Notes under the pieces: model-generated | The model's database searches: none | What the model was told of the DNA's origin: nothing | What the model saw: only the letters and a program-made list of their open reading frames with translations | Assembly: GCA_026396065.1 (NCBI GenBank) | Contig: JAPLXO010000003.1 | Span: forward strand, 1,304 to 65,303 | DNA length: 64,000 nucleotides | Source: Candidatus Nomurabacteria bacterium | Lineage (GTDB): Bacteria > Patescibacteriota > Minisyncoccia > Phycocordibacterales > UBA9973 | Direction: 5' to 3' | Made by a program: the position numbers and the translations under genes | Shown here: piece after piece, positions 4,829 through 62,693 of the stretch | Numbering within the stretch: the stretch's first letter is position 1 | Layout of the letters: every line of letters begins with the position of its first letter

Positions 4829-4829
4829 G

Positions 4830-4920: not shown

Positions 4921-4966
4921 AAGGGTTCGCCACGCTCCGCGTGGCTCCTCGTTTGCCAATACAATT

Positions 4967-9861: not shown

Positions 9862-10944
9862 ATGCTTCGCGCTAAATATAATAAATTTTTCCCAATACCA
9901 CATTTTTTATCTCAACCATCTTTTGGTTTAGATATTTCTGATCAATCTATTAAGTTTGTAGAATTTTTAGAAACTCATAAAGGTCTTCGTATTGGTCGCT
10001 TTGGTGAGCGTCCTATTCCAGTAGGTGTGATTGAGTCAGGAAAAATTATAGAATCAAAGCATTTAAAAGAAATTTTATTATTACTTAAAAAAGAATATGG
10101 AATAAAATCTGTGCGCGTGTCTTTACCAGAAGAACAAGTTTATCTTTTTAAATTAAAAATTATTAAAGAATCCACTGTTGATATTCGTCAAACAATCGAA
10201 TTCTCTTTAGAGGAGCACGTTCCTATACCTCCTACTGATTTAGTATTTGATTACGAAATTTTTAAAGAAGATGAAAAAAACATTGAAGTAGAGGTTACTA
10301 CTGCACCAAAACAAATTATTGAAAGCTACCTTTCTATTTTTAGAGATTGCGGACTAAATGTTTCTTCTTTTGAGCTTGAAGCGCAAGCTCTAGCCAGAGC
10401 AGTCATTTTAGATAAAGATTTAGATACTTACATGATAGTTGATTTAGGAAAACAGCGTACTGGTATATCTGTCGTTAGTAATAATATTGTTATTTTTACT
10501 TCCACTGTTGATGCGGGTGGGGTAATGCTTACAAATCTTATTGAAAAAAATTTTAAGATTAGTTTTTTAGATGCAGAAAATATGAAAGTAAAATATGGCC
10601 TTAGTCGAAGTTCAGGGAACCAAGAAGTTTTCTCTGTTCTTTTGAACGGTGTATCTATTATTCGTGATGAAATTAGTAAACATTTTTTATATTGGCATAC
10701 TCATAAAGATGAAGATGGAGAAGTAAGGCCAAAAATAAAAAAAATAATTCTGTGCGGTGGTGATTCAAATTTGATTGGTTTTGCGGAGTATCTCTCTATT
10801 AGTATGAAACAAAATGTAGAGATTGCTAATGTCTGGCGAAATGTTATTTCGCCAGATGAGTATATTCCAGAGATGTCTTTTCAGGATTCCTTGAGTTATG
10901 CTACAGCAATAGGATTAGCATTAAGAGATTTATATTATGATTAA
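9862..10944 (+). CDS. pilM: type IV pilus assembly ATPase-like protein PilM
   Basis: N-terminal FGLDISDQSIKFVEF (actin-like fold), ~360 aa, followed by pilN/pilO-like genes. Confidence 0.75.
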   Translation: MLRAKYNKFFPIPHFLSQPSFGLDISDQSIKFVEFLETHKGLRIGRFGERPIPVGVIESGKIIESKHLKEILLLLKKEYGIKSVRVSLPEEQVYLFKLKIIKESTVDIRQTIEFSLEEHVPIPPTDLVFDYEIFKEDEKNIEVEVTTAPKQIIESYLSIFRDCGLNVSSFELEAQALARAVILDKDLDTYMIVDLGKQRTGISVVSNNIVIFTSTVDAGGVMLTNLIEKNFKISFLDAENMKVKYGLSRSSGNQEVFSVLLNGVSIIRDEISKHFLYWHTHKDEDGEVRPKIKKIILCGGDSNLIGFAEYLSISMKQNVEIANVWRNVISPDEYIPEMSFQDSLSYATAIGLALRDLYYD

Positions 10945-42700: not shown

Positions 42701-43347
42701 CTTTGTATTTTGTACTCAAAAATTTGGCAAAAGTCATAGCTCCGTTTGCGCCATTCGTGTCAGAAAACATTTGGATGAAATTGCGACTTGAGAATGAAGT
42801 TGAAAGTGTACATTTAGTAAACTGGCCCGACCTCACCCTGCCCTCTCCTGGAGAGGAGAGGGTTCTAGAAGAGATGCAGAAAACGAGAAACATTGTTTCT
42901 GTGGGATTAAAAGAGAGGCAAAAATTAGGAATTCCTGTGCGTCAGGTTTTGGGTGGTGTGAAAGTTAGTATTGAAAAATTAGATAATGAATATTTAGATT
43001 TAATAAAAGAAGAGTTGAACGTCAAAGAAGTGACACTAGAAACTAGCAACTCGAACCTAGAAACTAGTGTCGTACTCGACACGGTCATTACTCCCGAACT
43101 AAAAGAAGAAGGGAACTACCGTGAACTCGTTCGCGCGATTCAAGACATGCGTAAAAAAGCAGGGCTCACTCCTTCAGATATAATTTCTCTTTCTATAGAA
43201 ACTGACGAGATAGGAAAATCTTTAATTCAAAAATTCGAAGCTGATTTCAAGAAAACTATTTTGGTGAAAGAAATAAAGTTTGAGAGTAATACTGGGGAAG
43301 AAGTAAAAGTGGATACTTTAATCTTTAAAGTTAGTATTGAAAAATAA
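39727..43347 (+). CDS. ileS: isoleucyl-tRNA synthetase carrying an embedded histidine-phosphatase domain and several in-frame palindromic mini-insertions
   Basis: HIGH (PFATGQMHYGHIL), editing domain, KMSKS (GEKMSKSKNN), zinc-knuckle halves CTKC ... CECG. 1206 aa, versus roughly 920-1050 aa for typical IleS. Confidence 0.95.
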   Translation: MEEKKDTTKSEIALREEAVLAFWRENKTFEKSLEKESPKGNYVFYDGPPFATGQMHYGHILGSTAKDVIGRYQTMRGYHVPRKWGWDCHGLPIENIVEKELGIAGHKEIEKYGIEKFIEYARSKVLQYEDDWESGVERIGRWVDFRGGYKTMDNNFIESVWWALSEFYKKGLVYEGVRVLAYCARCETPIANSEIAMDNSYKDISDLSVYVKFELVDEPNTYLLAWTTTPWTLPGNTAIAINKDIDYVKVRLTEDAQIQKAGTGTYNVYTPEFLILAKVLVEKVLKDKIFEVVEEYKGEKLVGKSYKPIFKYYENVEMPNKENIWKVWHADFVTTEKGTGIAHQAPAFGEEDFVLAKENNVPFIIHVNNTGKFVDQVSDMAGLAVKPKDTAEDKDAHMRTDIEVIRKLQENGAFFAKEKILHSYPHCMRCDTPIIYYALPSWFINITKVKSDIAKSAEEMNWIPAHLKDGRFKNILESAPDWNISRNRYWASPLPVWKCTKCKEMKFISSLEDLKKHTKKSGNKYFVMRHGETEANKKGIICSMPSGKWHLDEDGIRQVENAGENMKDKKIDLIFVSDFTRTQETAEIMRLKLGLEKESVIVEKRLREIGAYSFDGKVWDEYHAFHTKTVENFNKRVNDDESYEDVKVRMTAFLYEIEEKYKGKNILFVTHGGPAWLLTAGSMGNDVKETLAMILDVKDYHYFQNAEIKELDFTPISHNAKFELDFHRPYIDNINLICECGEEMKRIPEVLDCWFESGSMPFAQDHFPFDPEGKITSYGAGNSDWEKNNFPAGFVAEYIAQTRTWFNYTLTVSSVLFGHAPFKNVVTTGTVRAEDGEKMSKSKNNFPNPKTLFDKYGVDALRMYLMSGPLMKGEDANFVEKLVQEISSKIVGRLENVVAFYELYKDTSPQPSPYKGEGAKNVLDVWILSRLAQVMEEVTLGMEAYDMASATKPFDLFIDDLSTWYLRRSRDRMKEEASNPEGKSTSYGARTTLYFVLKNLAKVIAPFAPFVSENIWMKLRLENEVESVHLVNWPDLTLPSPGEERVLEEMQKTRNIVSVGLKERQKLGIPVRQVLGGVKVSIEKLDNEYLDLIKEELNVKEVTLETSNSNLETSVVLDTVITPELKEEGNYRELVRAIQDMRKKAGLTPSDIISLSIETDEIGKSLIQKFEADFKKTILVKEIKFESNTGEEVKVDTLIFKVSIEK
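41240..41900 (+). other. in-frame histidine phosphatase (PGAM-like) domain inserted between the two zinc-knuckle halves of IleS
   Basis: YFVMRHGETEANKKG (RHG catalytic His motif) ... ILFVTHGGPAWLL (second conserved His motif). ~220 aa between PVWKCTKCKE and ICECGEEM. Confidence 0.7.
42036..42064. repeat. 29-bp palindromic insert CCCCGAAGGAAAGATTACTTCCTACGGGG, in-frame in ileS
   Basis: Encodes PEGKITSYG. A second copy at 42663-42691 differs by one nt. Confidence 0.8.
42444..42479. repeat. GC-rich palindromic mini-element, in-frame in ileS
   Basis: CACCTCACCCCAACCCTCTCCTTataAAGGAGAGGG with a 10-bp perfect stem. Encodes TSPQPSPYKGEG. Confidence 0.85.
42663..42691. repeat. second copy of the 29-bp palindromic insert, in-frame in ileS
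   Basis: CCCCGAAGGAAAGAGTACTTCCTACGGGG. Encodes PEGKSTSYG. Confidence 0.8.
42831..42862. repeat. variant GC-rich palindromic mini-element, in-frame in ileS
   Basis: CCTCACCCTGCCCTCTCCTggagAGGAGAGGG. Encodes LTLPSPGEER. Confidence 0.7.
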
Positions 43348-45010: not shown

Positions 45011-45033
45011 GTGTGTGTGTGTGTGTGTGTGTG
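45011..45033. repeat. (GT)11.5 dinucleotide microsatellite at the start of the RT ORF
   Basis: GTGTGTGTGTGTGTGTGTGTGTG. Encodes VCVCVC at the RT N-terminus. Lies 26-48 nt upstream of the avd start on the other strand. Confidence 0.9.
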
Positions 45034-46046
45034 GATTCAGCCATGCCTTCAATAATATCATATTGGTAGAAAATTTGTTTGTATCGTGGCGAGAATTTTT
45101 GCGAGGTAAAAGCAAACGAAAAGATGTGATTTTGTTTGGAATGAATTTGATGGATAATATTTTTTCTCTCCACAACGACCTTAAAAATAAAAAATATAAA
45201 CACAGTAATTACGAAGCATTTAAAATAAACGACCCGAAACCGAGAGACATACACAAAGCCAGTGTGCGAGACAGACTTTTACACCATTCTATCTATCGTA
45301 CGCTGTATCCGTACTTTGATAAGAAATTCATTTACGATTCATATTCTTGCCGATTAGGAAAGGGAACACATAAAGCAATATATAGATTTGAAAGTTTTGT
45401 AAATAAAGTAAGCAAGAATAATACAAAAACCTGCTGGGTTTTGAAATGCGACATCAGAAAGTTTTTTGCAAATATTGACCATGAAATATTGAAAAACATT
45501 TTGGCGAAATACATACAAGACAAAGATACATTAAATTTGTTAAGGAATATAATAGATAGCTTTCAAAGTGACACAAACTCTGCCTATGCAGAAAGTGTGT
45601 CACTTTCTGCTATTGGTTTACCGTTAGGTAATTTAACTTCACAGCTTCTAGTAAATATTTATATGAATGAATTTGATCAGTACGTGAAGCATAAGCTCAA
45701 AGTGAAATATTATATTAGATATGCGGATGATTTTGTAGTATTGAGTGAAGATAAAAAGTATTTGGAAGAAATACTGGAAGAAGTCGCAAATTTTCTGAAA
45801 GAAAATTTGCGACTAAAGTTACATCCAAACAAAGTTTTTAGTAAAACAATATTTTCTGGTGTAGACTTTCTCGGCTGGGTGCATTTTCCAAGACATCGAG
45901 TGTTGCGAAATGCTACTAAAAAAAGAATGCTTAGAAATTTAAAGAAAAATAGTAGTGAAAATGTAAAAGCTTCATATTTAGGAATGTTGAGTCATGGGAA
46001 TGGTTTTAAATTAAAGAATCATATTTACGCCATGGCTGAGATATAA
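45015..46046 (+). CDS. DGR reverse transcriptase
   Basis: IGLPLGNLTSQ (DGR-specific IGxxxSQ motif 4), YADD (YIRYADDFVV). N-terminus ILVENLFVSWREFLRGKSKRKD aligns to Bordetella bRT. Apparent GTG start inside the GT tract. Confidence 0.9.
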   Translation: MCVCVCGFSHAFNNIILVENLFVSWREFLRGKSKRKDVILFGMNLMDNIFSLHNDLKNKKYKHSNYEAFKINDPKPRDIHKASVRDRLLHHSIYRTLYPYFDKKFIYDSYSCRLGKGTHKAIYRFESFVNKVSKNNTKTCWVLKCDIRKFFANIDHEILKNILAKYIQDKDTLNLLRNIIDSFQSDTNSAYAESVSLSAIGLPLGNLTSQLLVNIYMNEFDQYVKHKLKVKYYIRYADDFVVLSEDKKYLEEILEEVANFLKENLRLKLHPNKVFSKTIFSGVDFLGWVHFPRHRVLRNATKKRMLRNLKKNSSENVKASYLGMLSHGNGFKLKNHIYAMAEI

Positions 46047-46056: not shown

Positions 46057-48321
46057 TTATTCAAAATGCAATTGTAAATGCTTCTTTGTGAGCATGTCTT
46101 TTAATTTTGGGAAATTACGGAGGTCTGGGTCAGTGGTTATTAGGTTTGTCGCTTCGAGGCGTGCGGCTTCTACCATTTTTATATTTTTAATCGCTTCCAT
46201 ACCGAGGTCGGTGATGCCCCATTGCTTTGAGCCTGCGAGTTCTCCTGCACCACGGAGCGATAGGTCGAGTTCAGAAAGCTCGAAACCATTTTTAGCCGTT
46301 TTTAATGCTTTCAATCGATGCATAGTTTTTTCTGATTTGGCTTCGGCAAAAACATAACAAAAGGCTTGATGATTACTACGTATCACGCGTCCGCGGAGCT
46401 GGTGAAGTTGTGCGAGTCCAAATCTCTCTGCACCTTCGATAATTATTATTGTAGCATTAGGCACATTCACACCGACTTCGATTACAGAAGTCGCGACGAG
46501 AATATCAATAGCCCCTAAAGTGAAACGTTCCATAACTTTCTCCTTTTTTTCTTTTGTCATCTTACTGTGGAGCACATCTATTTCACAGTCTTGGAAAACT
46601 TCTTTTTTAAGTCTTTTGGCTTCAGCGACTGCGGATTTCATGGTGAGGGCGAGTTCTTTTTCAGGATCTGGTTCGTCGATACGAGGGCAGATGACATAGA
46701 GCTGTCTACCTTTCGCCATTTCTTCTTTTATTTTTTTATAAGTATCTTCTCTTTTGTCTGGGGTAATTATTTCTGTAATAACTGGTTTTCTACCAGCTGG
46801 CATCTCATCGAGTAAACTCAAATCAAGGTCACCATAAATAGTGAGTGCGAGTGTGCGGGGGATCGGTGTCGCTGTCATTGAAAGTAGGTGTGGAGCGAAG
46901 CCATCCTTTCTAACTAAATTTCTTCTCTGTGCCGTACCGAAACGGTGTTGCTCGTCGATGATAGTAAGTGCGAGATTTTTAAATTTCACCGATTTTGAAA
47001 TGAGTGCGTGAGTGCCGATAAGTATTGGAATTTCACCATTAGCAGTCCATTTCAAAAGTTGAGCTCTGGAAATATTTGTCCATCCGTCAGGGCTGACTTT
47101 GGATGGAAATTTGCGACAGGTCTTGCCTGTAAGTAGTGCTACATTTATTGGTAAGTGTTTAAAATATTTTATAAATGATTCAAAATGCTGAGTCGCTAAA
47201 ATTTCTGTCGGTGCCATATAGGCGACTTGTAAATTACCGAATCCATCTTTCCCCTCCTGCCTGAGGAGGGGTGTTTTGGAATCAAAACGGGGTGGTGGGA
47301 GAGGAGGTCTTTGAGTAACTGTGGCATATGTTACCGTCGCAGCGACTGCTGTTTTACCAGAGCCGACGTCACCTTCGAGCAGGCGAGACATTGGGTGATC
47401 AGCTTTTATATCTGTCAGAATTGTGTTGATAGCATCGACTTGGCCTTGAGTGGCTTCAAAAGGAAAACGTTCCAAAAATTCTTGTACTTTTGTTTCATCT
47501 GGATTAACACGAAATGATTTATTATTTTTATATTCTCTTCGGTCTTGTTGTCTTTGTAATTGGATGAAAAAAACTTCTTCAAAAGCAAAACGCTTTCTAG
47601 CTGAAAGGGAATCATGTTCATTTTGCGGTGTGTGAATCCAAATGAGTGATGTTTTTAAACTAGGTAAATGATATTTATCTAAAATGTCTTTTGGTATGTA
47701 ATCAAAAAAACCATCTAGCACACTACTGTTAAATATTTTTTGTATTGTATGGTAAATCCATTTAGAAGTTATGCCTCTAGTTTCTCTGTATACAGGATAT
47801 GAAAGTCCTGTATTATTTTCTCCCCCTTTATAAGGGGGAGTGCCCAAAGGGCGAGGGGGTGAATTTTTAAATAAACTCTCATGTTTATCTATCGGTAGAT
47901 TTCCAATTTTTTCAAATTCTGGATTGGTAAGATATAAACCACTTTTACTTTCCGTCACTTTTCCTGTTAGCTTTATATTTTCACCTTCGTGAATCATTTT
48001 GGCTAGATATGCTTGGTGAAACCAAATGATTTTTATTCTCCCTGAAAGATCCTCAATATAAGCTTCACCCATTGGTATATGTGAACGAAAACCTTTTTTT
48101 GTTTTTAAATTTGTAACTTTTCCATAAACCGTCGCTGTCTCACCAGCTATCAATTCATCGATTTGTTTTATTTGAGAAATATCTGAGTAACGAACAGGAA
48201 AGTAGAATAGCAAATCGGCAACAGAAAAAAGCCCGAGCTTATGAAGGGCTTTTTTCTGGTTGATATCGAGGCGGGAAATATCCTCTAACTTATCACCTAT
48301 ATTCATAGTTTTAGTTACCAA
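46057..48321 (-). CDS. recG: ATP-dependent DNA helicase RecG, with two in-frame palindromic insertions
   Basis: Wedge/OB N-terminus. GDVGSGKT (motif I), DEQHRFG (motif II), C-terminal helicase motifs. 754 aa. Confidence 0.9.
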   Translation of the reverse strand: MVTKTMNIGDKLEDISRLDINQKKALHKLGLFSVADLLFYFPVRYSDISQIKQIDELIAGETATVYGKVTNLKTKKGFRSHIPMGEAYIEDLSGRIKIIWFHQAYLAKMIHEGENIKLTGKVTESKSGLYLTNPEFEKIGNLPIDKHESLFKNSPPRPLGTPPYKGGENNTGLSYPVYRETRGITSKWIYHTIQKIFNSSVLDGFFDYIPKDILDKYHLPSLKTSLIWIHTPQNEHDSLSARKRFAFEEVFFIQLQRQQDRREYKNNKSFRVNPDETKVQEFLERFPFEATQGQVDAINTILTDIKADHPMSRLLEGDVGSGKTAVAATVTYATVTQRPPLPPPRFDSKTPLLRQEGKDGFGNLQVAYMAPTEILATQHFESFIKYFKHLPINVALLTGKTCRKFPSKVSPDGWTNISRAQLLKWTANGEIPILIGTHALISKSVKFKNLALTIIDEQHRFGTAQRRNLVRKDGFAPHLLSMTATPIPRTLALTIYGDLDLSLLDEMPAGRKPVITEIITPDKREDTYKKIKEEMAKGRQLYVICPRIDEPDPEKELALTMKSAVAEAKRLKKEVFQDCEIDVLHSKMTKEKKEKVMERFTLGAIDILVATSVIEVGVNVPNATIIIIEGAERFGLAQLHQLRGRVIRSNHQAFCYVFAEAKSEKTMHRLKALKTAKNGFELSELDLSLRGAGELAGSKQWGITDLGMEAIKNIKMVEAARLEATNLITTDPDLRNFPKLKDMLTKKHLQLHFE
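47222..47308. repeat. GC-rich palindromic insert in recG, between helicase motifs I and Ia
   Basis: CCCCTCCtgcctgaGGAGGGG ... GGGTGGTGGGAGAGGAGG. Encodes RPPLPPPRFDSKTPLLRQEGKDGFGNL where other RecG run directly into QVA(Y)MAPTEILA. Confidence 0.75.
47810..47851. repeat. GC-rich palindromic mini-element in recG
   Basis: CTCCCCCTTtatAAGGGGGAG + GCCCaaaGGGC. Encodes GTPPYKGGENN. Confidence 0.8.
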
Positions 48322-48685
48322 TTAATTCTTTTATTTTCTTTGTCAGTTCATCAAGTGTGAAATTTGATTTTACCATGAATTCACTGATACCTAGCTTTTG
48401 TGCACGTGAAATATCTTTTTCTTCTGAAAGATTTGAGAATACTATTACTGGAATAGTAAGCATTGCTTTATTTTCACGGATTTTTTCTAAAATCATAAAA
48501 CCATCAACTTGAGGAAGAAGTAGATCTAATAATATTAAATCTATCTTTTCTCCGCTATCTGTAATCTTAAATACCTCATCGCTATTTATAGCCACAAGTA
48601 CCTCATACCCTTCTTTTTTAAGTTTGGTTGCTTCTAGACCTTGTAGGAATAGATCATCTTCAACAATCAGTATTTTTTTAGACAT
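48311..48685 (-). CDS. response regulator receiver-domain protein (CheY-like, stand-alone)
   Basis: KILIVEDD...DLILLDLLLP phospho-acceptor Asp region. Confidence 0.8.
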   Translation of the reverse strand: MSKKILIVEDDLFLQGLEATKLKKEGYEVLVAINSDEVFKITDSGEKIDLILLDLLLPQVDGFMILEKIRENKAMLTIPVIVFSNLSEEKDISRAQKLGISEFMVKSNFTLDELTKKIKELIGN

Positions 48686-48720
48686 ATGGATATTATACTA
48701 CAAGCAGAAAGCCTTGCAAG

Positions 48721-49476
48721 TTATTTTTTAGCTATAGGTACTGTAAAGAAAAAGGTCGTACCATGGCCTGCTTCACTTTCAAACCAGACTTTTCCACCCT
48801 GAGCCTCAGATATTTTCTTTGTTGTATATAATCCAATTCCAGACCCCATAGCTTCTTTTTTTTGTGCATCATCAGTGCGATAGAATTTTTCAAATATTTT
48901 TTTCTTACTATCTTCAGATATACCAATACCAGAGTCTTTTACAGATACTTCTACTAATCCATCGTCGTTTACTTTTATTGAAATAAATATTTTACCATGG
49001 TAATGACTATATTTAATTGCATTCTCTATCAAATTTTGTAATATTACTCGAGTTTTTTCCTTATCTATTTTTACATGAGGTATTGTATTATTCGGTTTTA
49101 AGAAAATTATTTCAATACCACGCCCCATTGATTCTCCAGAAAAATCAAAAATTGTACTTTCAATAATTTCTATCAAATTAGCATTTTCAAAAATATATTT
49201 TTTTTCTACTACATCTTCTGACTTGTTAATAAGTAAAATTTCACTTACAAGACTTATCGCTCTTTCATTTCCATCTGATGCTTTTCTAAGCAATGTTTCT
49301 TGTTCTAACGTAAGTCTTCCTAAGTCTCCATCTAGAAACATCCTTATTATCCATTTTAGTGCAGCCAACGATGTGCGTATTTGGTGCGCACCAATAGACA
49401 CAATTTCTGATTTTACAGAATTCAATTTTACTAGACGTTCATTTTCACTTTTTAATTTTTCTATTTCTTCAGGCAT
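48721..49476 (-). CDS. sensor histidine kinase, cytoplasmic (HisKA plus HATPase_c)
   Basis: H-box GAHQIRTSLAAL, N-box LIENAIKYS, G-boxes DSGIGI and GSGIGL. Confidence 0.8.
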   Translation of the reverse strand: MPEEIEKLKSENERLVKLNSVKSEIVSIGAHQIRTSLAALKWIIRMFLDGDLGRLTLEQETLLRKASDGNERAISLVSEILLINKSEDVVEKKYIFENANLIEIIESTIFDFSGESMGRGIEIIFLKPNNTIPHVKIDKEKTRVILQNLIENAIKYSHYHGKIFISIKVNDDGLVEVSVKDSGIGISEDSKKKIFEKFYRTDDAQKKEAMGSGIGLYTTKKISEAQGGKVWFESEAGHGTTFFFTVPIAKK

Positions 49477-49540
49477 AAGAGTATTTTAGCATAAGATTTT
49501 ATTATTAGATATTCTTTGATGGAAGTATTATAATGTAAAT

Positions 49541-50515
49541 ATGAATAAAAAAGTCTTTATAACAAGGAATATTCCAGACCTCGGGATTACTATGTTAAAA
49601 AATAAGGGTTATGAGGTAGATATTTATCCAAAGAATAAAATAATGTCTCAAAAAGAGCTTATTTCTATATTAAAAAAGAAAGATTATGATGCTGTTTTGT
49701 GTCTTTTGACTGATAAAATAGATGCAAAAGTCTATAATGCCTCACCATCGGTAAAAATATATTCAAACTATGCTACGGGTTTTGATAATTTAGATTTAGC
49801 TGAAGCTAAAAAAAGAGGAATTTTGATTGCGAATTCTCCAGCCGATTTGTCTTCAGAAGCTGTCGCCGAGCATGCACTCGTAATGATGTTAGCTCTTGCA
49901 GCGCGAATAGTAGAAGCTGATGATTTTGTTCGTCGTGGAAAGTATAAAGGTTGGGATCCGATGCATTTTATCGGTACAGATATTTTAGGAAAAACTCTCG
50001 GGCTCGTCGGTGCTGGTAGAATAGGGGAACGAGTAGCCTTTTATGCAAAAGGCTTAGGAATGAAAATAATTTATACAGATGTCACAAAAAATCCTAGAAT
50101 AGAAGAATCAGTCGGCGCAGAATATTTTGCTACTATGGAAGAACTTTTACCAAAAGCAGATATTGTGACTTTACATGTGCCACTTTTAGAATCGACAAAA
50201 CATTTAATGAATGAAAAACATTTTAAAATGATGAAGCAGACTGCTTTTTTAGTAAATACTTCTCGTGGCCCTGTCGTAGATGAAAAAGCACTCGTGAAAG
50301 CTTTGAAAGAAAAAGTGATTGCAGGTGCAGGACTGGATGTTTTTGAATTTGAACCAAAATTGGTTTCTGGTTTATCAAAACTTCAAAATGTAATTCTCAC
50401 ACCACATATCGGATCTGCAAGTATCGAAGCTCGAAATCAAATGGCCGAGGTTGCCGTAAATAATATAATAGATTTTTTTGAAGGAAAAGTTCCTGCAAAT
50501 ATCGTAAATAAATAA
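49541..50515 (+). CDS. D-isomer-specific 2-hydroxyacid dehydrogenase (glycerate/hydroxypyruvate/phosphoglycerate dehydrogenase family)
   Basis: [16 protein letters not shown]-binding motif and catalytic domain signatures. Confidence 0.85.
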
Positions 50516-50525: not shown

Positions 50526-51953
50526 ATGATTGGAAAATTAATTATCGCAAGACATGAAGAATCGGAATGGAATAAGCTAGGTAAATGGACTGGTTCTATG
50601 AATATTGGTTTGACAGAAAAAGGTTTTGATAATTCTCGAAAAATGGGGGAACTTATTCGTGGTATTCCAATGGATCAAGCCTTTGCTTCGACACAAATTC
50701 GCTCTCTTGAAACACTGCTTTGTATGGAGGACGATATTTGTATTGATTTACCGATTACTCGTTCTTCAGCTTTAAATGAAAGGGATTATGGGGATTATAC
50801 TGGAAAAAATAAATGGGAAATGAAAGACCTGTTGGGCGAAGAAGAATTTGATAAACTTCGTCGCAATTGGGATTATCCTGTGCCAAACGGTGAGACATTA
50901 AAAGTTGTTTATGAAAGGGTGGTGCCATATTATTTAAATACTATTTTACCAATTTTAAAAGAAGGGAAGACTGTACTTCTCGTCGCTCATGGAAATTCAC
51001 TTCGAGCTTTGATGAAATATTTAGAAAATATTTCTGATGAAAATATTTCTCATTTAGAGATGCTTTTCGATACTGTTGTTATTTATGAAATAAATGAAGA
51101 GGGAAGAATGATTAATAAAGAAGAGAGACATATGCCAGTTGTAAAAGATGATACAAAAAAAGTCGCACAGATTGTGGCGACGATTGGGATTAATTCTGGA
51201 AACAGAGAAACACTTTTGGAATTGATAAATCACAATATGAATGTGGCACGACTAAATTTTTCTTGGTCCGATCTCGCCTGGCATGAAGAACATATTAAAA
51301 TGATTCGTGATATGGCGAAAGAGGCTGGAAAAAATATTTTAATTATTCAAGATTTACCAGGGCCGAGAATTCAAGAAGAACACGGGCATACATATGACAA
51401 GACAATGACTTTTGATATGACTGAGCAAGACAAAAACTTTGTGAAGTTTGGTGTAGAGCAGGGAGTAGACTATATAGCTCTTTCATTTGTCGGTAGTAAA
51501 AAAGAAATAGAAGAATGTAGAGAACTTGTAAAAAGTCTTAATGGCACACAAAAAATAATTGCGAAAGTAGAAAGAAAAGTCGCCCTCGATAACCTTGAAG
51601 AAATTATTTCTTCGGCTGATGCTGTAATGGTGGCGAGGGGAGACCTTGGCAATGAATTCCCATTAGAAGAAATTCCTTTCATTCAAGAAAAGATAATTAA
51701 AGCTTGTAATAAAGCTGGCAAACCTGTGATCACTGCGACACAAATGATGCTCTCGATGGTAAACAGTCCGACACCGACAAGAGCAGAAGTGACCGATGTG
51801 GATACTGCAATACTACAGGGAAGTGATGCAGTAATGCTCTCTGAAGAAACAGCCACAGGTAAATACCCAGTCGAAGCGGTGACTATGATGGAGAAAATAA
51901 TTCTCGAAGCTGAGAGTCATATGACCGGTGATAAAAAATTAAATCTTTTATAA
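50526..51953 (+). CDS. fusion protein: 2,3-BPG-dependent phosphoglycerate mutase (N) plus pyruvate kinase A-domain lacking B and C domains (C)
   Basis: N-terminal [17 protein letters not shown] ... [11 protein letters not shown] (dPGM). C-terminal [10 protein letters not shown]...[76 protein letters not shown] (PK). Confidence 0.8.
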
Positions 51954-51958
51954 AATTT

Positions 51959-53209
51959 ATGCAAAAAATAAAAAAAGTTACGGGGAGGGAAATAATAGAT
52001 TCACGAGGAAATCCGACTGTCGAAGTGGAGTGTGAACTTGAGAGTGGGACAGTGGCTGTGGCTGGTGTGCCGTCGGGGGCGAGTACTGGAATACACGAAG
52101 CCTTGGAATTGCGAGATAGAGATATGGCCAGATACAATGGCCTCGGAGTTTTGAATGCGGTAAATAATGTAAATACTATAATTAATGAAAATATTTCTGG
52201 GAAAGAATTTAATCAGAGATCTTTAGATGAAACTTTGATTACACTCGACGGCACAAAAAATAAATCCAAACTCGGAGCGAATGCAATACTCGGAGTGTCG
52301 CTCGCTTTTGCTCGCGCAGTCTCTCTCGAGAAAAAAATAAATTTATATGAATATTTAGGGTCTTTAGTCGGCAATACACAATACACTTTACCTGAGCCAA
52401 TGTTCAATGTGATCAATGGTGGTAAGCACGCAGATAGTGGACTCGATATTCAAGAATTTATGATTATCCCCGTCGGCATAAAAACTTTCAAAGAAAAAGT
52501 GCGAGTCGTTTCAGAAGTTATTTCAGCCTTGAAAAGAGTTTTAGTAGAAAAAGGTTTCGGCGTTGGTGTGGGGGATGAGGGTGGCTTTGCACCAAAACTC
52601 GCTTCCAATGAAGAAGCTTTTGATATTTTAATACAAGCAATACAAAATGCTGGCTATACTACAGAGCAAATAAAGATCGGTATCGATGCGGCAGCATCAA
52701 GCTTCTTTATAGATGGAATGTATAAATTAAAAATAGCAGGGGAGGAGAAAAGTTTGAATACCGAGGAAATGATAGCTTGGTATGAAAAGCTCGTATCTAC
52801 ATACCCGATAATTTCTATCGAAGACGGACTCAATGAAGAGGATTGGGCTGGATTCGTATCATTAAATAAAAAACTCGGAGACAATATAAAAATAATAGGG
52901 GATGACCTACTCGTGACGAATGTAGAAAAAATACAAAAAGCTATAACAGAGAATGCAGTGAATTCTGTTTTGATAAAATTGAATCAAATCGGAACTTTGT
53001 CTGAGACTATTGATGCGATACAAATGACTAAAAAACAAAATTGGAATGCAATCGTATCTCATCGCTCAGGGGAGACGAATGATACATTTATCGCTGATCT
53101 CGCTGTGGGCTTTTCATGTGGCTACATAAAATCCGGATCACTTACTCGCGAAGAAAGAGTTTGTAAATATAATCGTTTGATGGAGATAGAAGAAGATATT
53201 TCTAAATAA
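51959..53209 (+). CDS. eno: enolase
   Basis: ITGREIIDSRGNPTVEVE, SGASTGIHEALELRD, and a C-terminal IKLNQIGTLSET...SHRSGETND. Confidence 0.95.
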   Translation: MQKIKKVTGREIIDSRGNPTVEVECELESGTVAVAGVPSGASTGIHEALELRDRDMARYNGLGVLNAVNNVNTIINENISGKEFNQRSLDETLITLDGTKNKSKLGANAILGVSLAFARAVSLEKKINLYEYLGSLVGNTQYTLPEPMFNVINGGKHADSGLDIQEFMIIPVGIKTFKEKVRVVSEVISALKRVLVEKGFGVGVGDEGGFAPKLASNEEAFDILIQAIQNAGYTTEQIKIGIDAAASSFFIDGMYKLKIAGEEKSLNTEEMIAWYEKLVSTYPIISIEDGLNEEDWAGFVSLNKKLGDNIKIIGDDLLVTNVEKIQKAITENAVNSVLIKLNQIGTLSETIDAIQMTKKQNWNAIVSHRSGETNDTFIADLAVGFSCGYIKSGSLTREERVCKYNRLMEIEEDISK

Positions 53210-58066: not shown

Positions 58067-59197
58067 ATGGCGAATCCTTTGCAAAAAATAATAGACATAG
58101 GCAAGAGTATTTTCTCAAATAGTTCTTCTGGAAGTGCTGTAGGCATAGATATAGGCACTTCGGCTATTAAAATAGTCGAAATAAAGAAGAAAGGAGGAAA
58201 AGCAGTTTTGGAAACTTACGGTTCAGTTTCGCTCGGTTCTTATGCTAGCGTAGAAAATGGACGAGTTACAAATTTGCCAGCTGAAAAGATTGCTCTTGCA
58301 TTAAAAGAAGTTTTAAAGGAGTCTGATGTATCTACTAAGTCTTCGGCTCTTTCTATTTCTTCACAATCAAGCCTAATTTTCACTATTGAAATTCCTCCAA
58401 ATATAAAAGAAAGTTCTTTGTCTACTATTATTCCAACAGAAGCTCGTAAATATATTCCTGTTCCTATTACTGAAGTTTCACTTGATTGGTTCATTCTTCC
58501 TAAAAAAGAACCTTCTTTTGAAGAAGAGAATAATCCCGATCTTCCAATAGCTGAAGCACAAAAAACTGAAGTTTTAGTAGTTGCCATTGAAAATGATGCA
58601 ATTGCAAAATATCAATCTGTCGTAACTACTTGTTCTCTCGATGCAGCATTTTTTGAACTGGAAGTTTTTTCTTCAATTAGGGCAAATTTTGATCACGAGC
58701 TTTCACCAGTACTTTTACTGGATTTTGGTGCAAGTAAAGTAAAACTTTCAATTGTAGAATTTGGTGCAGTAAAAAGTTTTCATATTATAAATCGTGGTGG
58801 TGCAGATATTACAGAATCAATTTCAAAATCTTTATCTATAGATTTTCCAAAAGCAGAAGAGATGAAGAGGGAATTTGGACTTTTAGGTAATTCAACTGAA
58901 AAAAATCTTACAGAAATAATAAAAACACACATTGACTATGTATTTTCAGAAACAAATAGTGTATTATTAGGATACGAGAAAAAATATAATAAAACTATTA
59001 GTAAAGTAATATTGACTGGTGGGGGATCTTTATTAAAAGGTTTCAAAGAAATGTCTGTTGGTAATTTTCCTGTTCAAGTAGAGGTTGGTACACCTTTTTC
59101 AAAAGTAAGTGCGCCTGTTTTTTTAGAAAAAGTATTATTGGCGACTGGTCCTGAGTTTGCTGTCGCTCTAGGTCTTGCTTTGAGGAAACTACAATGA
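58067..59197 (+). CDS. pilM: type IV pilus assembly protein PilM (second copy)
   Basis: AVGIDIGTSAIKIVEIKKKGG N-terminus. 376 aa. Confidence 0.75.
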   Translation: MANPLQKIIDIGKSIFSNSSSGSAVGIDIGTSAIKIVEIKKKGGKAVLETYGSVSLGSYASVENGRVTNLPAEKIALALKEVLKESDVSTKSSALSISSQSSLIFTIEIPPNIKESSLSTIIPTEARKYIPVPITEVSLDWFILPKKEPSFEEENNPDLPIAEAQKTEVLVVAIENDAIAKYQSVVTTCSLDAAFFELEVFSSIRANFDHELSPVLLLDFGASKVKLSIVEFGAVKSFHIINRGGADITESISKSLSIDFPKAEEMKREFGLLGNSTEKNLTEIIKTHIDYVFSETNSVLLGYEKKYNKTISKVILTGGGSLLKGFKEMSVGNFPVQVEVGTPFSKVSAPVFLEKVLLATGPEFAVALGLALRKLQ

Positions 59198-60944: not shown

Positions 60945-62693
60945 ATGAGTTTTTTAGAAGAACTTGCTAAAAAAGGAGTTATAGAAGAAAGCCAAATAGG
61001 AGAGATTAAAAATCGAGCTGATGAAAAGTATGAAGGCAGTATCGATGACGCACTCTCTGAATTTGGAGTTTCAGATGAAATTGCTTTAAAAACAAAAGGA
61101 GAGTATTTTGCTATGCCAACAAAAAATGTCGTAGTTAAATCACTTTCTTTTGAGGCATTAAAATATATACCAGAAGATTCTGCTAGGCATTACAATTTTG
61201 CTCCTATTAGTTTGAAAGATGGGGTTTTGGAAGTCGGTGTTACAGATCCTGAAAATATTGCTGCAATGGATGCATTACAATTTATTTCTGATAAATTAAA
61301 CACACCCTTTAAGATTTTTTTAATTTCAAAAAATAATTATAAAGAAATTATGGAAAATTATAAAGGTATTACGGGTTCAATGTCAGATGAATTGGAAAAA
61401 TTTGATTCAGAAGAATTAAAAAATACAAAAGAAATCACAGAAGCAGCGCTCAGCAGTGATTTAAAAGATATAAAACCAGGTGAGGAAGCCAAGATTGTTG
61501 AGTCAGCTCCAGTTATAAAAATTGTTGCAGTTATTTTAAGAAATGCTATTGAGGGTGGAGCTTCCGATATACATATAGAATTTAATGGAGAAAAAGTGAA
61601 AGTTCGATATCGTGTCGATGGTATTTTACATACAACAATTGTATTACCTTCAAACATTTATAGTGGAGTCGTGGCTCGTATAAAAATTCTTGCTAAATTA
61701 CGATTAGATGAAAAAAGAAAACCACAAGATGGATCTTTCTCTGCAAATTTTGATGGTAGAAAAATAGATTTTCGTGTTTCTACAATGCCATCGTATTATG
61801 GAGAGAAGGTTGTGATGCGTATTTTAGATTCTGAACAGGGTGTAAAACCTCTTGATACTTTAGGCCTATCAAAAAGAAATATTGCATTAGTTCGCGAAGC
61901 AATTACTAAACCTTATGGTCTTATTTTAATAACAGGGCCAACAGGATCTGGAAAATCTACTACACTTTATTCTATGATAAATGAATTGGATAAAGAAAAA
62001 AGTAATATCGTTTCACTTGAAGATCCTATTGAATACCATATTTCAGGTATTAACCAATCTCAAATGATGCCAGAAATTGGTTATACTTTTGCCTCTGGAC
62101 TTCGTTCTATATTGCGTCAGGACCCTGATATTATTTTGGTTGGAGAAATTCGTGATAAAGAGACAGCACAGCTTGCTATTCAAGCAGCATTGACTGGTCA
62201 TTTAGTGCTTTCAACTTTACACACAAATAATGCAATAGGCGCAGTACCTAGACTTGTAGATATGGGTGTAGATCCTTATTTAATTGCTCCAACTTTAATT
62301 TTATCAGTTGCTCAACGTTTATCACGACTAACTTTTCCTTCTTCAAGAAAATTAGTACCTATGGATCCTAGCGTTAAAGCTCAATTTGAAAAGACTATTT
62401 CTGATTTACCAGAAGAATTTAAAAATGAAATTGTTCTTGGTAATGAAATGTATGAAACTATTCCTTCAGCAGAATGTCCTACAGGTACAAAAGGACGTAT
62501 AGCAGTATACGAAATGTTTAAAATAGATAAAGATATGCAAGATGTTATATTAAAAAATCCTGTTGGTTCAGAAATTTACAAAACAGCACGTAAAGGCGGG
62601 ATGCTTATGATGCAAGAAGATGCTATGCTTAAAGCGGTAGCTGGTACAATACCATTTTCCGAAGTGTATAACTTTAATAGTGATATTAATTAA
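60945..62693 (+). CDS. pilB: type IV pilus assembly ATPase PilB (GspE family)
   Basis: N-terminal T2SSE_N region. Walker A GPTGSGKSTTLYS. Asp and His boxes. Confidence 0.9.
   Translation: MSFLEELAKKGVIEESQIGEIKNRADEKYEGSIDDALSEFGVSDEIALKTKGEYFAMPTKNVVVKSLSFEALKYIPEDSARHYNFAPISLKDGVLEVGVTDPENIAAMDALQFISDKLNTPFKIFLISKNNYKEIMENYKGITGSMSDELEKFDSEELKNTKEITEAALSSDLKDIKPGEEAKIVESAPVIKIVAVILRNAIEGGASDIHIEFNGEKVKVRYRVDGILHTTIVLPSNIYSGVVARIKILAKLRLDEKRKPQDGSFSANFDGRKIDFRVSTMPSYYGEKVVMRILDSEQGVKPLDTLGLSKRNIALVREAITKPYGLILITGPTGSGKSTTLYSMINELDKEKSNIVSLEDPIEYHISGINQSQMMPEIGYTFASGLRSILRQDPDIILVGEIRDKETAQLAIQAALTGHLVLSTLHTNNAIGAVPRLVDMGVDPYLIAPTLILSVAQRLSRLTFPSSRKLVPMDPSVKAQFEKTISDLPEEFKNEIVLGNEMYETIPSAECPTGTKGRIAVYEMFKIDKDMQDVILKNPVGSEIYKTARKGGMLMMQEDAMLKAVAGTIPFSEVYNFNSDIN

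What the first reader, a model, noticed from the sequence alone, without database searches (positions are those of the whole stretch)
50526..53209. Lower-glycolysis gene fusion: dPGM fused to a B- and C-domain-less pyruvate kinase, immediately upstream of enolase
One 475-aa ORF combines a full 2,3-BPG-dependent phosphoglycerate mutase with a pyruvate kinase TIM-barrel A domain. The mutase motifs are RHEESEWN and AHGNSLRAL.

In the PK part, all stretches flanking the lid are present ([55 protein letters not shown]). The ~100-aa B/lid domain is replaced by ~25 residues, and the C-terminal regulatory domain is absent.

With eno next door, the three consecutive steps 3PG to 2PG to PEP to pyruvate are physically clustered and two of them are covalently fused.

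Two local variants (RHG to RHE, NFSHG to NFSWS) touch residues that are normally conserved, so activity of either half is uncertain.
Basis: partly seen in the sequence, partly recalled or inferred. Interest (0 to 1): 0.55.

Follow-up and report, generated by a model that had tools for sequence, protein, structure and literature searches.

The report
Mutase fused to lidless pyruvate kinase
A Candidatus Nomurabacteria gene really does fuse a phosphoglycerate mutase to a pyruvate kinase that lacks both its lid and its regulatory domain; it belongs to a large, conserved and apparently undescribed family, and it is unclear how, or whether, such a kinase still makes ATP.

Summary
ORF 50526-51953 (475 aa) is a short dPGM (aa 1-200) joined by a floppy linker to a pyruvate-kinase A-domain barrel. 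About 95 lid (B-domain) residues are replaced by a roughly 15-residue loop, and the C domain is missing. Enolase follows 5 nt downstream.

It is not an assembly artefact. All 120 best database relatives (50-91% identity, many independent assemblies) have both domains: 102 as PGM-PK and 18 in reversed PK-PGM order. Other genomes carry the pair as 4-nt-overlapping genes.

The same lid-less "mini-PK" also occurs alone (about 265 aa) or fused to glycerate kinase or enolase. It always sits in a 2-hydroxyacid dehydrogenase / (PGM or glycerate kinase) / enolase / PK operon.

PEP/Mg2+ catalytic residues are invariant. All four described nucleotide contacts (His77, Arg119, Lys206, Asp177) are lost or replaced by family-specific residues (W247, R281, invariant loop H288).

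"NFSWS" is therefore family-wide, and the residue after RH is naturally variable, so neither is a local defect.

Best reading: a functional bifunctional dPGM/minimal PK of Patescibacteria, with the phosphoryl acceptor unproven. A PEP-to-mutase-histidine transfer, as reported for human PKM2/PGAM1, is not excluded. I found no description in the searchable literature.

The parts
49506..49534 (+). Promoter-like site (TAGATA-17-TATAAT, 10/12), ending 7 nt before the HADH start codon. It lies in the 64-nt divergent intergenic region shared with a histidine-kinase / response-regulator pair on the minus strand.
   Evidence: Consensus scan only; sequence. Not evidence of function.
49541..50515 (+). First gene of the operon: D-isomer 2-hydroxyacid dehydrogenase (324 aa). 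Its closest model is glyoxylate/hydroxypyruvate reductase.
   Evidence: Pfam 2-Hacid_dh_C 1e-59 plus 2-Hacid_dh. NCBIfam PRK13243 scores 372 bits, below the 455 cut-off. An orthologue (62-68% identity) sits next to the PGM/PK pair in L003, L004 and L083.
50526..51125 (+). dPGM domain (aa 1-200), short S. pombe-like form. Catalytic residues are H10 (50553-50555) and H155. The motif is RHE instead of RHG.
   Evidence: His_Phos_1 2e-30. TIGR01258 scores 151.8, above the 81.7 cut-off. It aligns as a single stretch to the 211-aa S. pombe PGM 1fzt (5e-38). R9, H10, N16, R59, E85, R86, Y88, K96, R113, H155 and N157 are invariant or nearly invariant in the family.
51126..51164 (+). Inter-domain linker (aa 201-213), variable in length and sequence.
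   Evidence: pLDDT below 50 at residues 206-210 and pTM 0.58. The linker alignment is gappy.
51165..51374 (+). PK A-domain, N-terminal part (aa 214-283). It contains R242, N244, S246, W247 (His77 position), D276, L277, P278 and R281 (Glu117 position).
   Evidence: Aligns to PK residues 2-75. Conservation.
51375..51419 (+). 15-residue loop (aa 284-298) that replaces the roughly 95-residue B/lid domain. It contains invariant His288 (51387-51389) in a G-H-T-Y-D motif.
   Evidence: The loop has the same length in 109 of 121 members and H288 is present in 121 of 121. It is predicted as part of a beta hairpin with pLDDT 60-72. The loop His is shared by stand-alone, GK-fused and enolase-fused mini-PKs.
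51420..51953 (+). PK A-domain, C-terminal part (aa 299-464), followed by an 11-residue tail and the stop codon. There is no C domain. Catalytic residues are K347, E349, D373 and T405.
   Evidence: Aligns to PK 170-338. These residues are invariant in 121 of 121 members. Foldseek superposes this half on solved PK A domains at rmsd 1.1-1.7 A over about 256-261 columns.
51959..53209 (+). Enolase (416 aa), starting 5 nt after the fusion's stop codon.
   Evidence: TIGR01060 575 bits; Enolase_N plus Enolase_C. Adjacent to the PGM/PK pair in L003, L004 and L083-85.

Best explanation
**What it is**
- A functional bifunctional lower-glycolysis enzyme from a Candidatus Nomurabacteria (Paceibacteria, Patescibacteria) genome.
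- It is transcribed as an operon: 2-hydroxyacid dehydrogenase, [dPGM-PK], enolase.

**How it most likely works**
- The N-terminal short dPGM converts 3-phosphoglycerate to 2-phosphoglycerate.
- The separately encoded enolase makes PEP.
- The C-terminal 'mini-PK' converts PEP to pyruvate. It is a PK A-domain barrel with no lid and no allosteric C domain.
- Without the C domain it should be unregulated by sugar phosphates or AMP, and it cannot form the C-C tetramer interface.
- It has Leu at position 113 and Arg at position 117 (rabbit numbering). This resembles the K+-independent PK class.

**What is shown**
- The architecture.
- Its conservation in fused, reversed and split forms.
- The invariant PEP/Mg2+ site.
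- The conserved operon.

**What is inferred**
- ADP is still the phosphoryl acceptor.
- It binds at a remodelled site built from W247 (replacing His77), R281, and invariant H288 of the replacement loop, in place of the lost lid residues.
- The fusion serves stoichiometric co-production or a PGM-enolase-PK metabolon. It is not direct channelling, because the two fused steps are not consecutive.
For: **The fusion is real and selected**
- All 120 best relatives carry PF00300 plus PF00224, at 50-91% identity and from several data sources.
- 18 of them have the reversed order, with the same orthologous domains.
- L003 and L004 encode the pair as genes overlapping by 4 nt.

**Catalytic residues are conserved**
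- PK equivalents of R72, N74, D112, K269, E271, D295 and T327 are invariant in 121 of 121 members.
- The dPGM catalytic and substrate residues are invariant.

**Structure**
- The model is confident, with mean pLDDT 91.6.
- The PK half superposes on solved PK A domains at 1.1-1.7 A.
- The mutase half matches the short S. pombe dPGM 1fzt in one stretch.

**Pathway context**
- The operon HADH + (PGM or glycerate kinase) + enolase + mini-PK recurs with shuffled fusion partners.
- PGM and glycerate kinase both deliver 2-PG, so the mini-PK is placed as the PEP-consuming step.
- A GK-PK fusion pairs an ATP consumer with a putative ATP regenerator.

**K+-independent-like pattern**
- L113 plus a cationic residue 117 fits the K+-independent pattern (abstracts of PMC4284704 and PMC8835810).

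**Lid not absolutely required**
[quoted passage not shown] 2020, cited in PMC10176505).
- The kinetic details of that paper are from my memory only.

**No other PK nearby**
- There is no second PK or dPGM in the 64-kb window.
Against: **Nucleotide contacts are all gone**
- PMC8835810 describes the nucleotide contacts of rabbit PK as R119, K206, D177 and the His77 adenine pocket.
- Here Q283 replaces R119 (106 of 121 members) and W247 replaces His77 (115 of 121).
- K206 and D177 are deleted with the lid.
- ADP binding therefore has to be rebuilt from residues whose role is untested.

**HMM thresholds**
- The equivalog model TIGR01064 is passed only marginally (313 vs 306).
- All PK subfamily models are failed.

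**No predicted domain packing**
- AF2 gives no confident inter-domain packing (pTM 0.58), so nothing suggests that the mutase domain acts as a surrogate lid.

**Not checked**
- Whether these genomes also hold a canonical PK, PPDK or PEPS.
- Some Parcubacteria do have canonical PKs (L056).

**No biochemistry**
- No biochemical data exist for any member.
Confidence: 0.6

Rival explanations
1. **Claim: PEP-dependent self-priming mutase.**
- The lid-less, open PK barrel binds PEP and transfers its phosphoryl group to the catalytic His10 of the fused (or partner-subunit) dPGM domain, possibly via loop His288, instead of to ADP.
- This makes the mutase independent of 2,3-BPG priming and releases pyruvate.
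- It would be a covalently wired version of the PKM2-to-PGAM1-H11 reaction, and formally analogous to PEP:His phosphotransfer in PTS Enzyme I and PPDK.
- It could coexist with residual PK activity.
For: **Experimental precedent (PMC11183095)**
- Purified PKM2 phosphorylates PGAM1 H11 with PEP but not with ATP.
- It raises mutase activity and pyruvate release.
- It needs the PEP-binding Lys (K270).
- It works best when de-tetramerised.

**Parallels in this family**
- The family keeps the equivalent Lys (K347) and the whole PEP site.
- It has lost all nucleotide contacts, and the C domain that builds the tetramer.
- The two domains have been kept together through a domain-order swap and as overlapping genes.
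- The lid replacement carries an invariant His.
Against: **The mini-PK is not tied to a mutase**
- The same mini-PK, with the same R281/H288 signature, occurs stand-alone and fused to glycerate kinase or enolase.
- In several of those loci no dPGM lies within 6-10 kb (L006, L007, L089), so the module's core role is not tied to a mutase.

**Energetics**
- As the main flux it would discard the only ATP gained between 3PG and pyruvate.

**Geometry**
- Both fusion orders attach the mutase at the bottom of the barrel, away from the active site, through a 10-25 residue linker. This is inferred from TIM-barrel topology.
- AF2 predicts no docking.
Confidence: 0.17
2. **Claim: the acceptor is another small molecule.**
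- The mini-PK converts PEP to pyruvate but uses a small-molecule acceptor other than ADP.
- Candidates are another NDP, AMP, or water (a PEP phosphatase).
- The nucleotide pocket has been rebuilt, which could change its specificity.
For: - The canonical adenine pocket residue and the ribose and beta-phosphate contacts are lost, while the PEP site is intact.
- The active site is predicted to be permanently open, with only a 15-residue hairpin in place of the lid.
Against: - Pro52 (family consensus TIGP), Arg72 and Ser361 equivalents, which line the nucleotide site in canonical PKs (from my knowledge of PK structures), are retained in the family.
- A GK-PK fusion makes most sense if ADP and ATP cycle between the two halves.
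- PEP hydrolysis would be energetically wasteful for a fermenter.
Confidence: 0.1
3. **Claim: the N-terminal domain is a phosphatase, not a mutase.**
- For example it could act on 2-PG/3-PG, phosphoserine or another phosphoester.
- It lacks the C-terminal tail and the roughly 25-residue loop of long dPGMs.
- It also carries RHE instead of RHG.
For: - The long-form tail and loop are missing.
- The equivalog dPGM models are all below their cut-offs.
- Tail removal is known to shift yeast dPGM toward phosphatase activity (from my own knowledge, not tested here).
Against: - All dPGM-specific substrate residues are invariant: equivalents of N17, R62, E89, R90, Y92, K100, R116/117 and N186.
- TIGR01258 is passed.
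- The best single-stretch structural relative is the short but genuine S. pombe dPGM.
- In the operon the domain is interchangeable with glycerate kinase, which also yields 2-PG.
- Models for phosphoserine and ribazole phosphatases score far below their cut-offs.
Confidence: 0.07
4. **Claim: artefact or decaying gene.**
- The fusion is a sequencing frameshift or assembly join, or the PK half is an inactive remnant.
For: - Split versions of the pair exist in other genomes, so a single indel could in principle fuse them.
- The triple GK-enolase-PK fusion is a singleton and could itself be such an artefact.
Against: - Three close relatives (87-91% identity, 475 aa each) come from three different data sources.
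- More than 100 further clusters have the same architecture.
- The reversed-order form P0081 is indexed in 51 blocks of the assembly collection.
- Catalytic residues are invariant over a family that has diverged to about 50% identity.
Confidence: 0.01

Closest known systems
Canonical bacterial pyruvate kinase (e.g. E. coli PykF, G. stearothermophilus PK 2e28; Pfam PF00224 + PF02887)
   Same: - The A-domain TIM barrel is about 40-50% identical over the aligned parts.
- It superposes at 1.1-1.7 A.
- All PEP, Mg2+ and proton-transfer residues are retained.
   Different: - The roughly 95-residue B/lid domain is replaced by a 15-residue loop with an invariant His.
- There is no C domain, so no allosteric site and no C-C tetramer interface.
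- His77 becomes Trp, Arg119 becomes Gln and Glu117 becomes Arg.
- It is fused to another enzyme.
- A 2023 overview of PK architectures lists isozymes that lack or duplicate the C domain, and none that lack the B domain (PMC10176505).
Engineered lid-deleted E. coli PykF (Sugrue et al. 2020, Eur Biophys J 49:761; cited in PMC10176505)
   Same: A PK without its B domain. [quoted passage not shown]
   Different: - That protein is an artificial truncation of a three-domain enzyme.
- Here the lid loss is natural, ancient, and accompanied by compensatory, conserved substitutions (W247, R281, H288) and by loss of the C domain.
- I could not read the paper itself.
K+-independent pyruvate kinases (Lys117 / Leu113 cluster; PMC4284704, PMC8835810)
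   Same: Leu at position 113 (114 of 121 members) and a positively charged residue at 117 (Arg in 120 of 121).
   Different: - The residue at 117 is Arg, not Lys.
- Position 114 is Pro, not Gln.
- Position 120 is variable and acidic or polar, not Leu, Ile or Val.
- The lid whose water network Lys117 organises is absent.
Short monomeric dPGM of Schizosaccharomyces pombe (PDB 1fzt, 211 aa)
   Same: - The mutase half aligns end to end in one stretch (5e-38).
- Both lack the long-form loop and the C-terminal tail.
   Different: - It is fused to a PK.
- The Gly of RHG is replaced by Glu here, and by Gln, His or Gly in relatives.
Human PKM2-PGAM1 histidine-kinase pair (PMC11183095)
   Same: - The same two enzyme families are physically associated.
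- The PEP-binding Lys is retained.
- A non-tetrameric PK is expected.
   Different: - There the association is a regulated, non-covalent encounter that depends on PGAM1 pY119.
- Here it is a constitutive covalent fusion in bacteria.
- No phosphotransfer has been shown for the fusion.
Other glycolytic gene fusions (e.g. PGK-TIM of Thermotoga; from my own knowledge)
   Same: Covalent linkage of two enzymes of one pathway in a reduced or streamlined genome.
   Different: - The fused steps here are non-consecutive, with enolase acting between them.
- The same PK module is found fused to several alternative partners and in both orders.

Membership tests
Pyruvate kinase (EC 2.7.1.40; PF00224 / TIGR01064) | A-domain TIM barrel with the PEP, Mg2+ and acid-base residues (rabbit R72, N74, D112, K269, E271, D295, T327) | tested here: met
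   R242, N244, D276, K347, E349, D373 and T405 are invariant in 121 of 121 members. The barrel superposes on solved PKs at 1.1-1.7 A.
Pyruvate kinase (EC 2.7.1.40; PF00224 / TIGR01064) | B (lid) domain carrying nucleotide contacts R119, K206 and D177, plus the His77 adenine pocket | tested here: not met
   PK residues about 76-169 are absent. R119 is Gln, His77 is Trp, and K206 and D177 are deleted. Residue roles are taken from PMC8835810.
Pyruvate kinase (EC 2.7.1.40; PF00224 / TIGR01064) | C-terminal alpha/beta regulatory domain (PF02887) | tested here: not met
   There is no PK_C hit and the protein ends about 10 aa after the barrel. This feature is not universal in PKs (PMC10176505).
Pyruvate kinase (EC 2.7.1.40; PF00224 / TIGR01064) | Curated HMM thresholds | tested here: inconclusive
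   PF00224 scores 253 bits against a cut-off of 30, and TIGR01064 scores 313.1 against 306.4, so both pass. All PK subfamily and equivalog models fail, e.g. PRK05826 at 316 against 432.
Pyruvate kinase (EC 2.7.1.40; PF00224 / TIGR01064) | ADP-dependent conversion of PEP to pyruvate | not testable with these tools
   Needs an enzyme assay.
2,3-BPG-dependent phosphoglycerate mutase (EC 5.4.2.11; TIGR01258) | Catalytic RHG His, second His (H184), and dPGM-specific substrate residues (N17, R62, E89, R90, Y92, K100, R116/117, N186) | tested here: met
   H10, H155, N16, R59, E85, R86, Y88, K96, R112/113 and N157 are all conserved. The Gly of RHG is not conserved: it is Glu here and G, Q or H in relatives.
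2,3-BPG-dependent phosphoglycerate mutase (EC 5.4.2.11; TIGR01258) | Curated HMM thresholds | tested here: inconclusive
   TIGR01258 (subfamily) scores 151.8 against 81.7 and passes. The short-form equivalogs fail: PRK01295 at 157 against 316 and PRK01112 at 159 against 320.
2,3-BPG-dependent phosphoglycerate mutase (EC 5.4.2.11; TIGR01258) | C-terminal tail and the roughly 25-residue loop of long-form dPGMs | tested here: not met
   Both are absent. They are also absent in the genuine short dPGM of S. pombe, 1fzt.
K+-independent PK cluster (K117 / L113 / Q114 / (L,I,V)120) | The four signature residues | tested here: inconclusive
   L113 is met. Position 117 is cationic but Arg. Position 114 is Pro and position 120 is variable. 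The definition is taken from the PMC8835810 abstract.
PEP-dependent protein-histidine kinase activity of PK toward PGAM (PKM2/PGAM1 type) | Physical association of PK with a dPGM, and an intact PEP-binding Lys | tested here: met
   The fusion is covalent. K347, equivalent to K270, is invariant.
PEP-dependent protein-histidine kinase activity of PK toward PGAM (PKM2/PGAM1 type) | PEP-dependent phosphorylation of the mutase catalytic His | not testable with these tools
   Needs [32P]PEP or phosphohistidine-antibody assays.

The most novel reading that the evidence does not exclude
**Claim**
- The lid-less mini-PK is not primarily an ATP-forming kinase.
- It is a PEP-driven phosphoryl-transfer module.
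- Its open barrel, with invariant loop His288, hands the PEP phosphoryl group to a protein or partner-bound acceptor.

**In the PGM fusions**
- The acceptor would be the catalytic His10 of the mutase.
- This would make the mutase a self-priming, 2,3-BPG-independent enzyme.

**In the glycerate-kinase fusions**
- The acceptor would be the nucleotide held by the kinase.

**Significance**
- This would be a bacterial, hard-wired counterpart of the debated PKM2-to-PGAM1 histidine-kinase reaction.
- It would also be a PK-family analogue of PTS Enzyme I and PPDK chemistry.
Probability: 0.17. Interest if true: 0.85.

Novelty: new variant of a known kind. Interest (0 to 1): 0.62.

Why it matters
**For PK enzymology**
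- The lid is regarded as the carrier of the nucleotide-binding residues and of the closing motion that forms the active conformation.
- Here a large natural clade has dispensed with it, and with all allosteric machinery, while keeping the PEP site invariant.
- That offers a minimal PK of about 265 residues to define what is truly required for catalysis.

**For CPR/Patescibacteria metabolism**
- The main survey found PK in only about a third of genomes, and PGM missing from shallow Parcubacteria clades (Jaffe et al. 2020).
- A half-length, fused PK scrapes past or fails curated HMM cut-offs.
- It may therefore account for part of that gap and change predictions of where these organisms make ATP.

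**For the PKM2/PGAM1 question**
- A natural dPGM-PK fusion, retained through a domain-order swap, gives a simple bacterial system to test PEP-to-mutase-histidine transfer.
- So far that reaction has been studied only in cancer cells.

**For metabolic organisation**
- Fusion partners are shuffled (PGM, glycerate kinase, enolase) around one PK module.
- This is a clear example of modular assembly of a lower-glycolysis metabolon.

Tried and rejected
**Assembly or frameshift artefact**
- Rejected, because the architecture recurs in independent assemblies.

**Second PK or dPGM in the window**
- tblastn with PykF and GpmA, plus Pfam on all ORFs of at least 250 aa, found none.
- They also found no PPDK, GAPDH, PGK or TPI.

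**Genome-collection scan**
- It is useful for a handful of loci only, and cannot be used for phyletic counts.

**Single origin of the mini-PK**
- A home-made NJ tree of 145 PK barrels, with the loop excluded, puts 16 of the 18 signature-bearing sequences in one exclusive clade.
- Bootstrap support is only 9/100 for that clade and 3/100 for all 18.
- I therefore do not claim monophyly.
- L008, P0212 and P0251 lack the signature and look like independent lid losses.

**Is the HADH the same gene in all operon types?**
- No. PGM-type and GK-type operons carry different orthogroups (35% identity between them against 46-62% within).
- Its substrate (pyruvate, hydroxypyruvate or 3-PG) stays open.

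**Inter-domain geometry**
- The tool returns no coordinates or PAE.
- I could not measure whether H10 or H288 can reach the PEP site. I have only pTM 0.58 and a disordered linker.

**Unavailable resources**
- The AFDB Foldseek library was unavailable.
- Sugrue et al. 2020 is not held.

**Literature searches**
- Searches for PGM-PK fusions or lid-less PKs in CPR returned nothing.
- Jaffe et al. 2020 does not contain 'fusion' or 'fused'.

**Other fusions**
- Organism names for the GK- and enolase-fused proteins could not be obtained.
- The PK-enolase fusion (P0123) and the triple fusion (P0263) are singletons and may be artefacts.
- GK-PK (P0325, 27 blocks) and GK-enolase (about 45 clusters) are recurrent.


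Full report
**1. The observation**

The window holds a 475-aa ATG-initiated ORF at 50526..51953 (+). A 416-aa ORF follows at 51959..53209 (+).

- Pfam places His_Phos_1 at residues 5-196 (2e-30). The pyruvate-kinase barrel PF00224 (5e-75) matches in two stretches, and there is no PK_C match.
- NCBIfam calls the second ORF enolase (TIGR01060, 575 bits). The upstream 324-aa ORF (49541..50515) is a D-2-hydroxyacid dehydrogenase, closest to glyoxylate/hydroxypyruvate reductase (372 bits, below the 455 cut-off).
- HMMER against solved structures aligns query 211-284 with PK residues 2-75, and query 297-464 with PK 170-338. A pairwise alignment with E. coli PykF gives the same picture.
- So about 94 lid residues are replaced by a dozen residues, and the chain stops about 10 residues after the A domain.
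- Spacers between the three genes are 10 and 5 nt.

The only numeric correction is that the lid replacement is about 12-15 residues, not about 25.

**2. Real gene or artefact?**

A search of 5.8 billion protein clusters returned 120 best hits.

- Every one carries both PF00300 and PF00224. They are 464-533 aa long and 50-91% identical.
- They come from NCBI, JGI, ENA and Logan assemblies.
- Where named, they are Nomurabacteria, Paceibacterota/Pacebacteria, Parcubacteria, Zambryskibacteria or Minisyncoccia.
- The three closest (87-91% identity) are each exactly 475 aa and come from three different sources.
- A neighbouring gene of the window is 100% identical to a protein of a 'Candidatus Nomurabacteria bacterium' MAG, which names the source organism.

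The frameshift/assembly explanation is therefore rejected.

**3. More than one arrangement**

- Eighteen of the 120 relatives have the opposite order: mini-PK first and the same orthologous mutase last.
- In two Patescibacteria MAGs (L003, L004) the pair is encoded as a 209-210-aa mutase gene and a 267-269-aa PK gene that overlap by 4 nt. The flanking genes are the same as in the window.
- An exhaustive phmmer search with the PK half against 1.84 billion representatives found lid-less PKs in several forms:
  - stand-alone proteins of 258-269 aa;
  - both PGM fusions;
  - a form fused to enolase (P0123);
  - a form fused to a DUF4147+MOFRL glycerate kinase (P0129);
  - a glycerate kinase-enolase-PK triple fusion (P0263);
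  - a form that keeps a C domain (P0251).
- GK-PK recurs (P0325, indexed in 27 blocks).
- GK-enolase fusions form a family of about 45 clusters, one of them named Kaiserbacteria.
- The PK-enolase and triple fusions are singletons and should be treated cautiously.

**4. One operon, shuffled**

Gene neighbourhoods are as follows.

| Source | Gene order |
|---|---|
| Window | HADH-[PGM-PK]-eno |
| L003, L004 | HADH-PGM-PK-eno |
| L083-85 | eno-[PK-PGM]-HADH |
| L086-88 | HADH-[GK-PK]-DHO_dh-PGM |
| L089-90 | HADH-[GK-eno]-PK |
| L007 (Saccharibacteria) | HADH...eno-PK |

- The constant set is a 2-hydroxyacid dehydrogenase, an enzyme that delivers 2-phosphoglycerate (dPGM or glycerate kinase), enolase and the mini-PK.
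- This places the mini-PK as the PEP-consuming step. It also supports the mutase assignment, because the mutase is interchangeable with another 2-PG supplier.
- The dehydrogenases of PGM-type and GK-type operons are different orthogroups, so I leave the substrate of the window's HADH open.

**5. Residue-level anatomy**

*PK half, PEP site.* Over 121 sequences, the equivalents of rabbit R72, N74, D112, K269, E271, D295 and T327 are invariant. These are R242, N244, D276, K347, E349, D373 and T405.

[quoted passage not shown] All are lost here:
- Q283 replaces R119 in 106 of 121 members.
- W247 replaces His77 in 115 of 121 members.
- K206 and D177 are deleted with the lid.

*PK half, family-specific features.* In their place the family has fixed:
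- Leu277 (position 113) and Pro278 (position 114);
- Arg281 (position 117, 120 of 121 members);
- a loop of constant length (109 of 121) with an invariant His288 in a G-H-T-Y-D motif.

The D-L-x-G-P-R...H signature is shared by stand-alone, GK-fused and enolase-fused mini-PKs. It is therefore a property of the PK module, not of the PGM fusion.

Leu113 plus a cationic 117 resembles the K+-independent PK class (PMC4284704, PMC8835810). However, the residue is Arg rather than Lys, and positions 114 and 120 do not fit.

*Mutase half.* All catalytic and dPGM-specific substrate residues are conserved. The residue after RH is free to vary (G 38, Q 37, H 14, E and others).

*Closest solved relative of the mutase half.* It aligns in a single stretch to the 211-aa S. 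pombe dPGM 1fzt. That enzyme also lacks the long-form loop and tail.

**6. Structure**

- AlphaFold2 with a 75-sequence alignment gives mean pLDDT 91.6 but pTM 0.58.
- The linker (206-210) is disordered. The lid-replacement region forms a beta hairpin of moderate confidence.
- Foldseek superposes the PK half on solved PK A domains at 1.1-1.7 A over about 256-261 columns.
- No fixed packing of the mutase over the PK active site is predicted.

**7. Mechanism**

*Shown:* a conserved, selected two-domain protein with an intact PEP/Mg2+ site and an intact dPGM site, in a lower-glycolysis operon.

*Inferred (confidence 0.6):*
- 3PG goes to 2PG on the mutase domain, 2PG to PEP on enolase, and PEP plus ADP to pyruvate plus ATP on a constitutive, non-allosteric, probably K+-independent mini-PK.
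- The nucleotide site of that mini-PK would be rebuilt from W247, R281 and H288.

*Arguments for ADP as acceptor:*
- Energetics: this is the only ATP gained between 3PG and pyruvate.
- A GK-PK fusion pairs an ATP consumer with an ATP regenerator.
- An engineered lid-less PykF is reported to retain some activity. I have only the title, via PMC10176505.

*Argument against:* every described nucleotide contact has been lost.

*Main rival (0.17):* PEP-dependent phosphorylation of the mutase's catalytic histidine.
- It is prompted by the finding that purified PKM2 phosphorylates PGAM1 H11 with PEP but not ATP. This works best when PKM2 is de-tetramerised and requires the PEP-binding Lys (PMC11183095).
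- The fusion fits that picture: an open barrel, no C domain, and the two domains retained together through a domain swap.
- However, the same mini-PK works without any mutase nearby in other genomes. The histidine-kinase role can therefore be at most an added function.

*Lesser rivals:*
- another small-molecule acceptor (0.10);
- a phosphatase rather than a mutase (0.07);
- an artefact or pseudogene (0.01).

**8. Known or new?**

- The proteins sit in public databases under automatic names: 'pyruvate kinase', '2,3-bisphosphoglycerate-dependent phosphoglycerate mutase', 'histidine phosphatase family protein', 'hypothetical protein'.
- Full-text searches for PGM-PK fusions or lid-less PKs in CPR/Patescibacteria returned nothing.
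- The principal survey of CPR glycolysis does not contain 'fusion' or 'fused'. [quoted passage not shown]
- A 2023 overview of PK architecture lists loss or duplication of the C domain but not loss of the B domain (PMC10176505).
- The fusion passes the PK equivalog model by only 7 bits and fails all subfamily models. Under-detection is therefore plausible.

I rate it a new variant of a known kind: known folds and chemistry, but an undescribed minimal architecture and fusion family.

**9. Limits**

- I could not examine the rest of the genome for a canonical PK, PPDK or PEPS.
- A crude NJ tree groups 16 of the 18 signature-bearing mini-PKs but without bootstrap support, so a single origin of lid loss is suggested, not shown.
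- No biochemistry exists for any member.

Noticed in passing
window 39727..43347 (+): A 1206-aa IleRS-type class I tRNA synthetase (HYGH at aa 56-59, KMSKS at 838) carries an intact histidine-phosphatase domain inserted at about aa 520-700 (His_Phos_1, 6.6e-33; RHGE...THGG). The insert is only 29% identical to the mutase domain of the fusion. All 120 best database relatives (58-100% identity; Nomurabacteria/Paceibacterota) carry the same insert, and two also carry an HD domain. It appears to be a conserved, undescribed aaRS::phosphatase chimera.
   Followed up: partly
window 45015..46046 (+): A 343-aa reverse transcriptase (RVT_1, 1.6e-27) ends 10 nt before the 3' end of the convergently oriented RecG-like helicase ORF (46057..48321, minus strand). 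I did not determine whether it belongs to a group II intron, a retron or a diversity-generating retroelement.
   Followed up: no
window 2392..6421: A C-5 cytosine DNA methylase (2392..3525, minus strand) and a large serine recombinase (4862..6421; Resolvase + Recombinase + Zn ribbon) lie in a stretch with GC about 0.38-0.40, against about 0.33 elsewhere. This may be an integrated mobile element.
   Followed up: no
window 48311..49476 (-): A soluble 251-aa histidine kinase and a 124-aa receiver-only response regulator are transcribed divergently from the HADH-[PGM-PK]-eno operon. Only 64 nt separate them from it, and that spacer holds the promoter-like site. They could regulate the operon.
   Followed up: no
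L089 6001..8487; P0280-P0324: A family of about 45 clusters of glycerate kinase (DUF4147+MOFRL)-enolase fusion proteins (about 825 aa) occurs in Patescibacteria, with one named Kaiserbacteria. In L089-90 the fusion is followed by a stand-alone lid-less PK gene. This is another apparently undescribed lower-glycolysis fusion.
   Followed up: partly
L008 142..1284; P0251; P0212: Lid-less PKs that lack the R281/H288 signature exist outside Patescibacteria, and some keep a C domain. One example is a 380-aa protein from a Dehalococcoidales MAG. This suggests independent losses of the B domain.
   Followed up: partly
L056 1489..3132: A Parcubacteria (CG11) canonical PK of 547 aa has its B domain expanded by a tandem 'SDKAASK' repeat insert. 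This shows that some Parcubacteria keep a lidded PK.
   Followed up: no
window 9862..10944, 58067..59197, 60945..62693: The window holds two PilM-type genes and a T2SSE/PilB-type ATPase, i.e. type IV pilus machinery, which is typical of CPR episymbionts.
   Followed up: no
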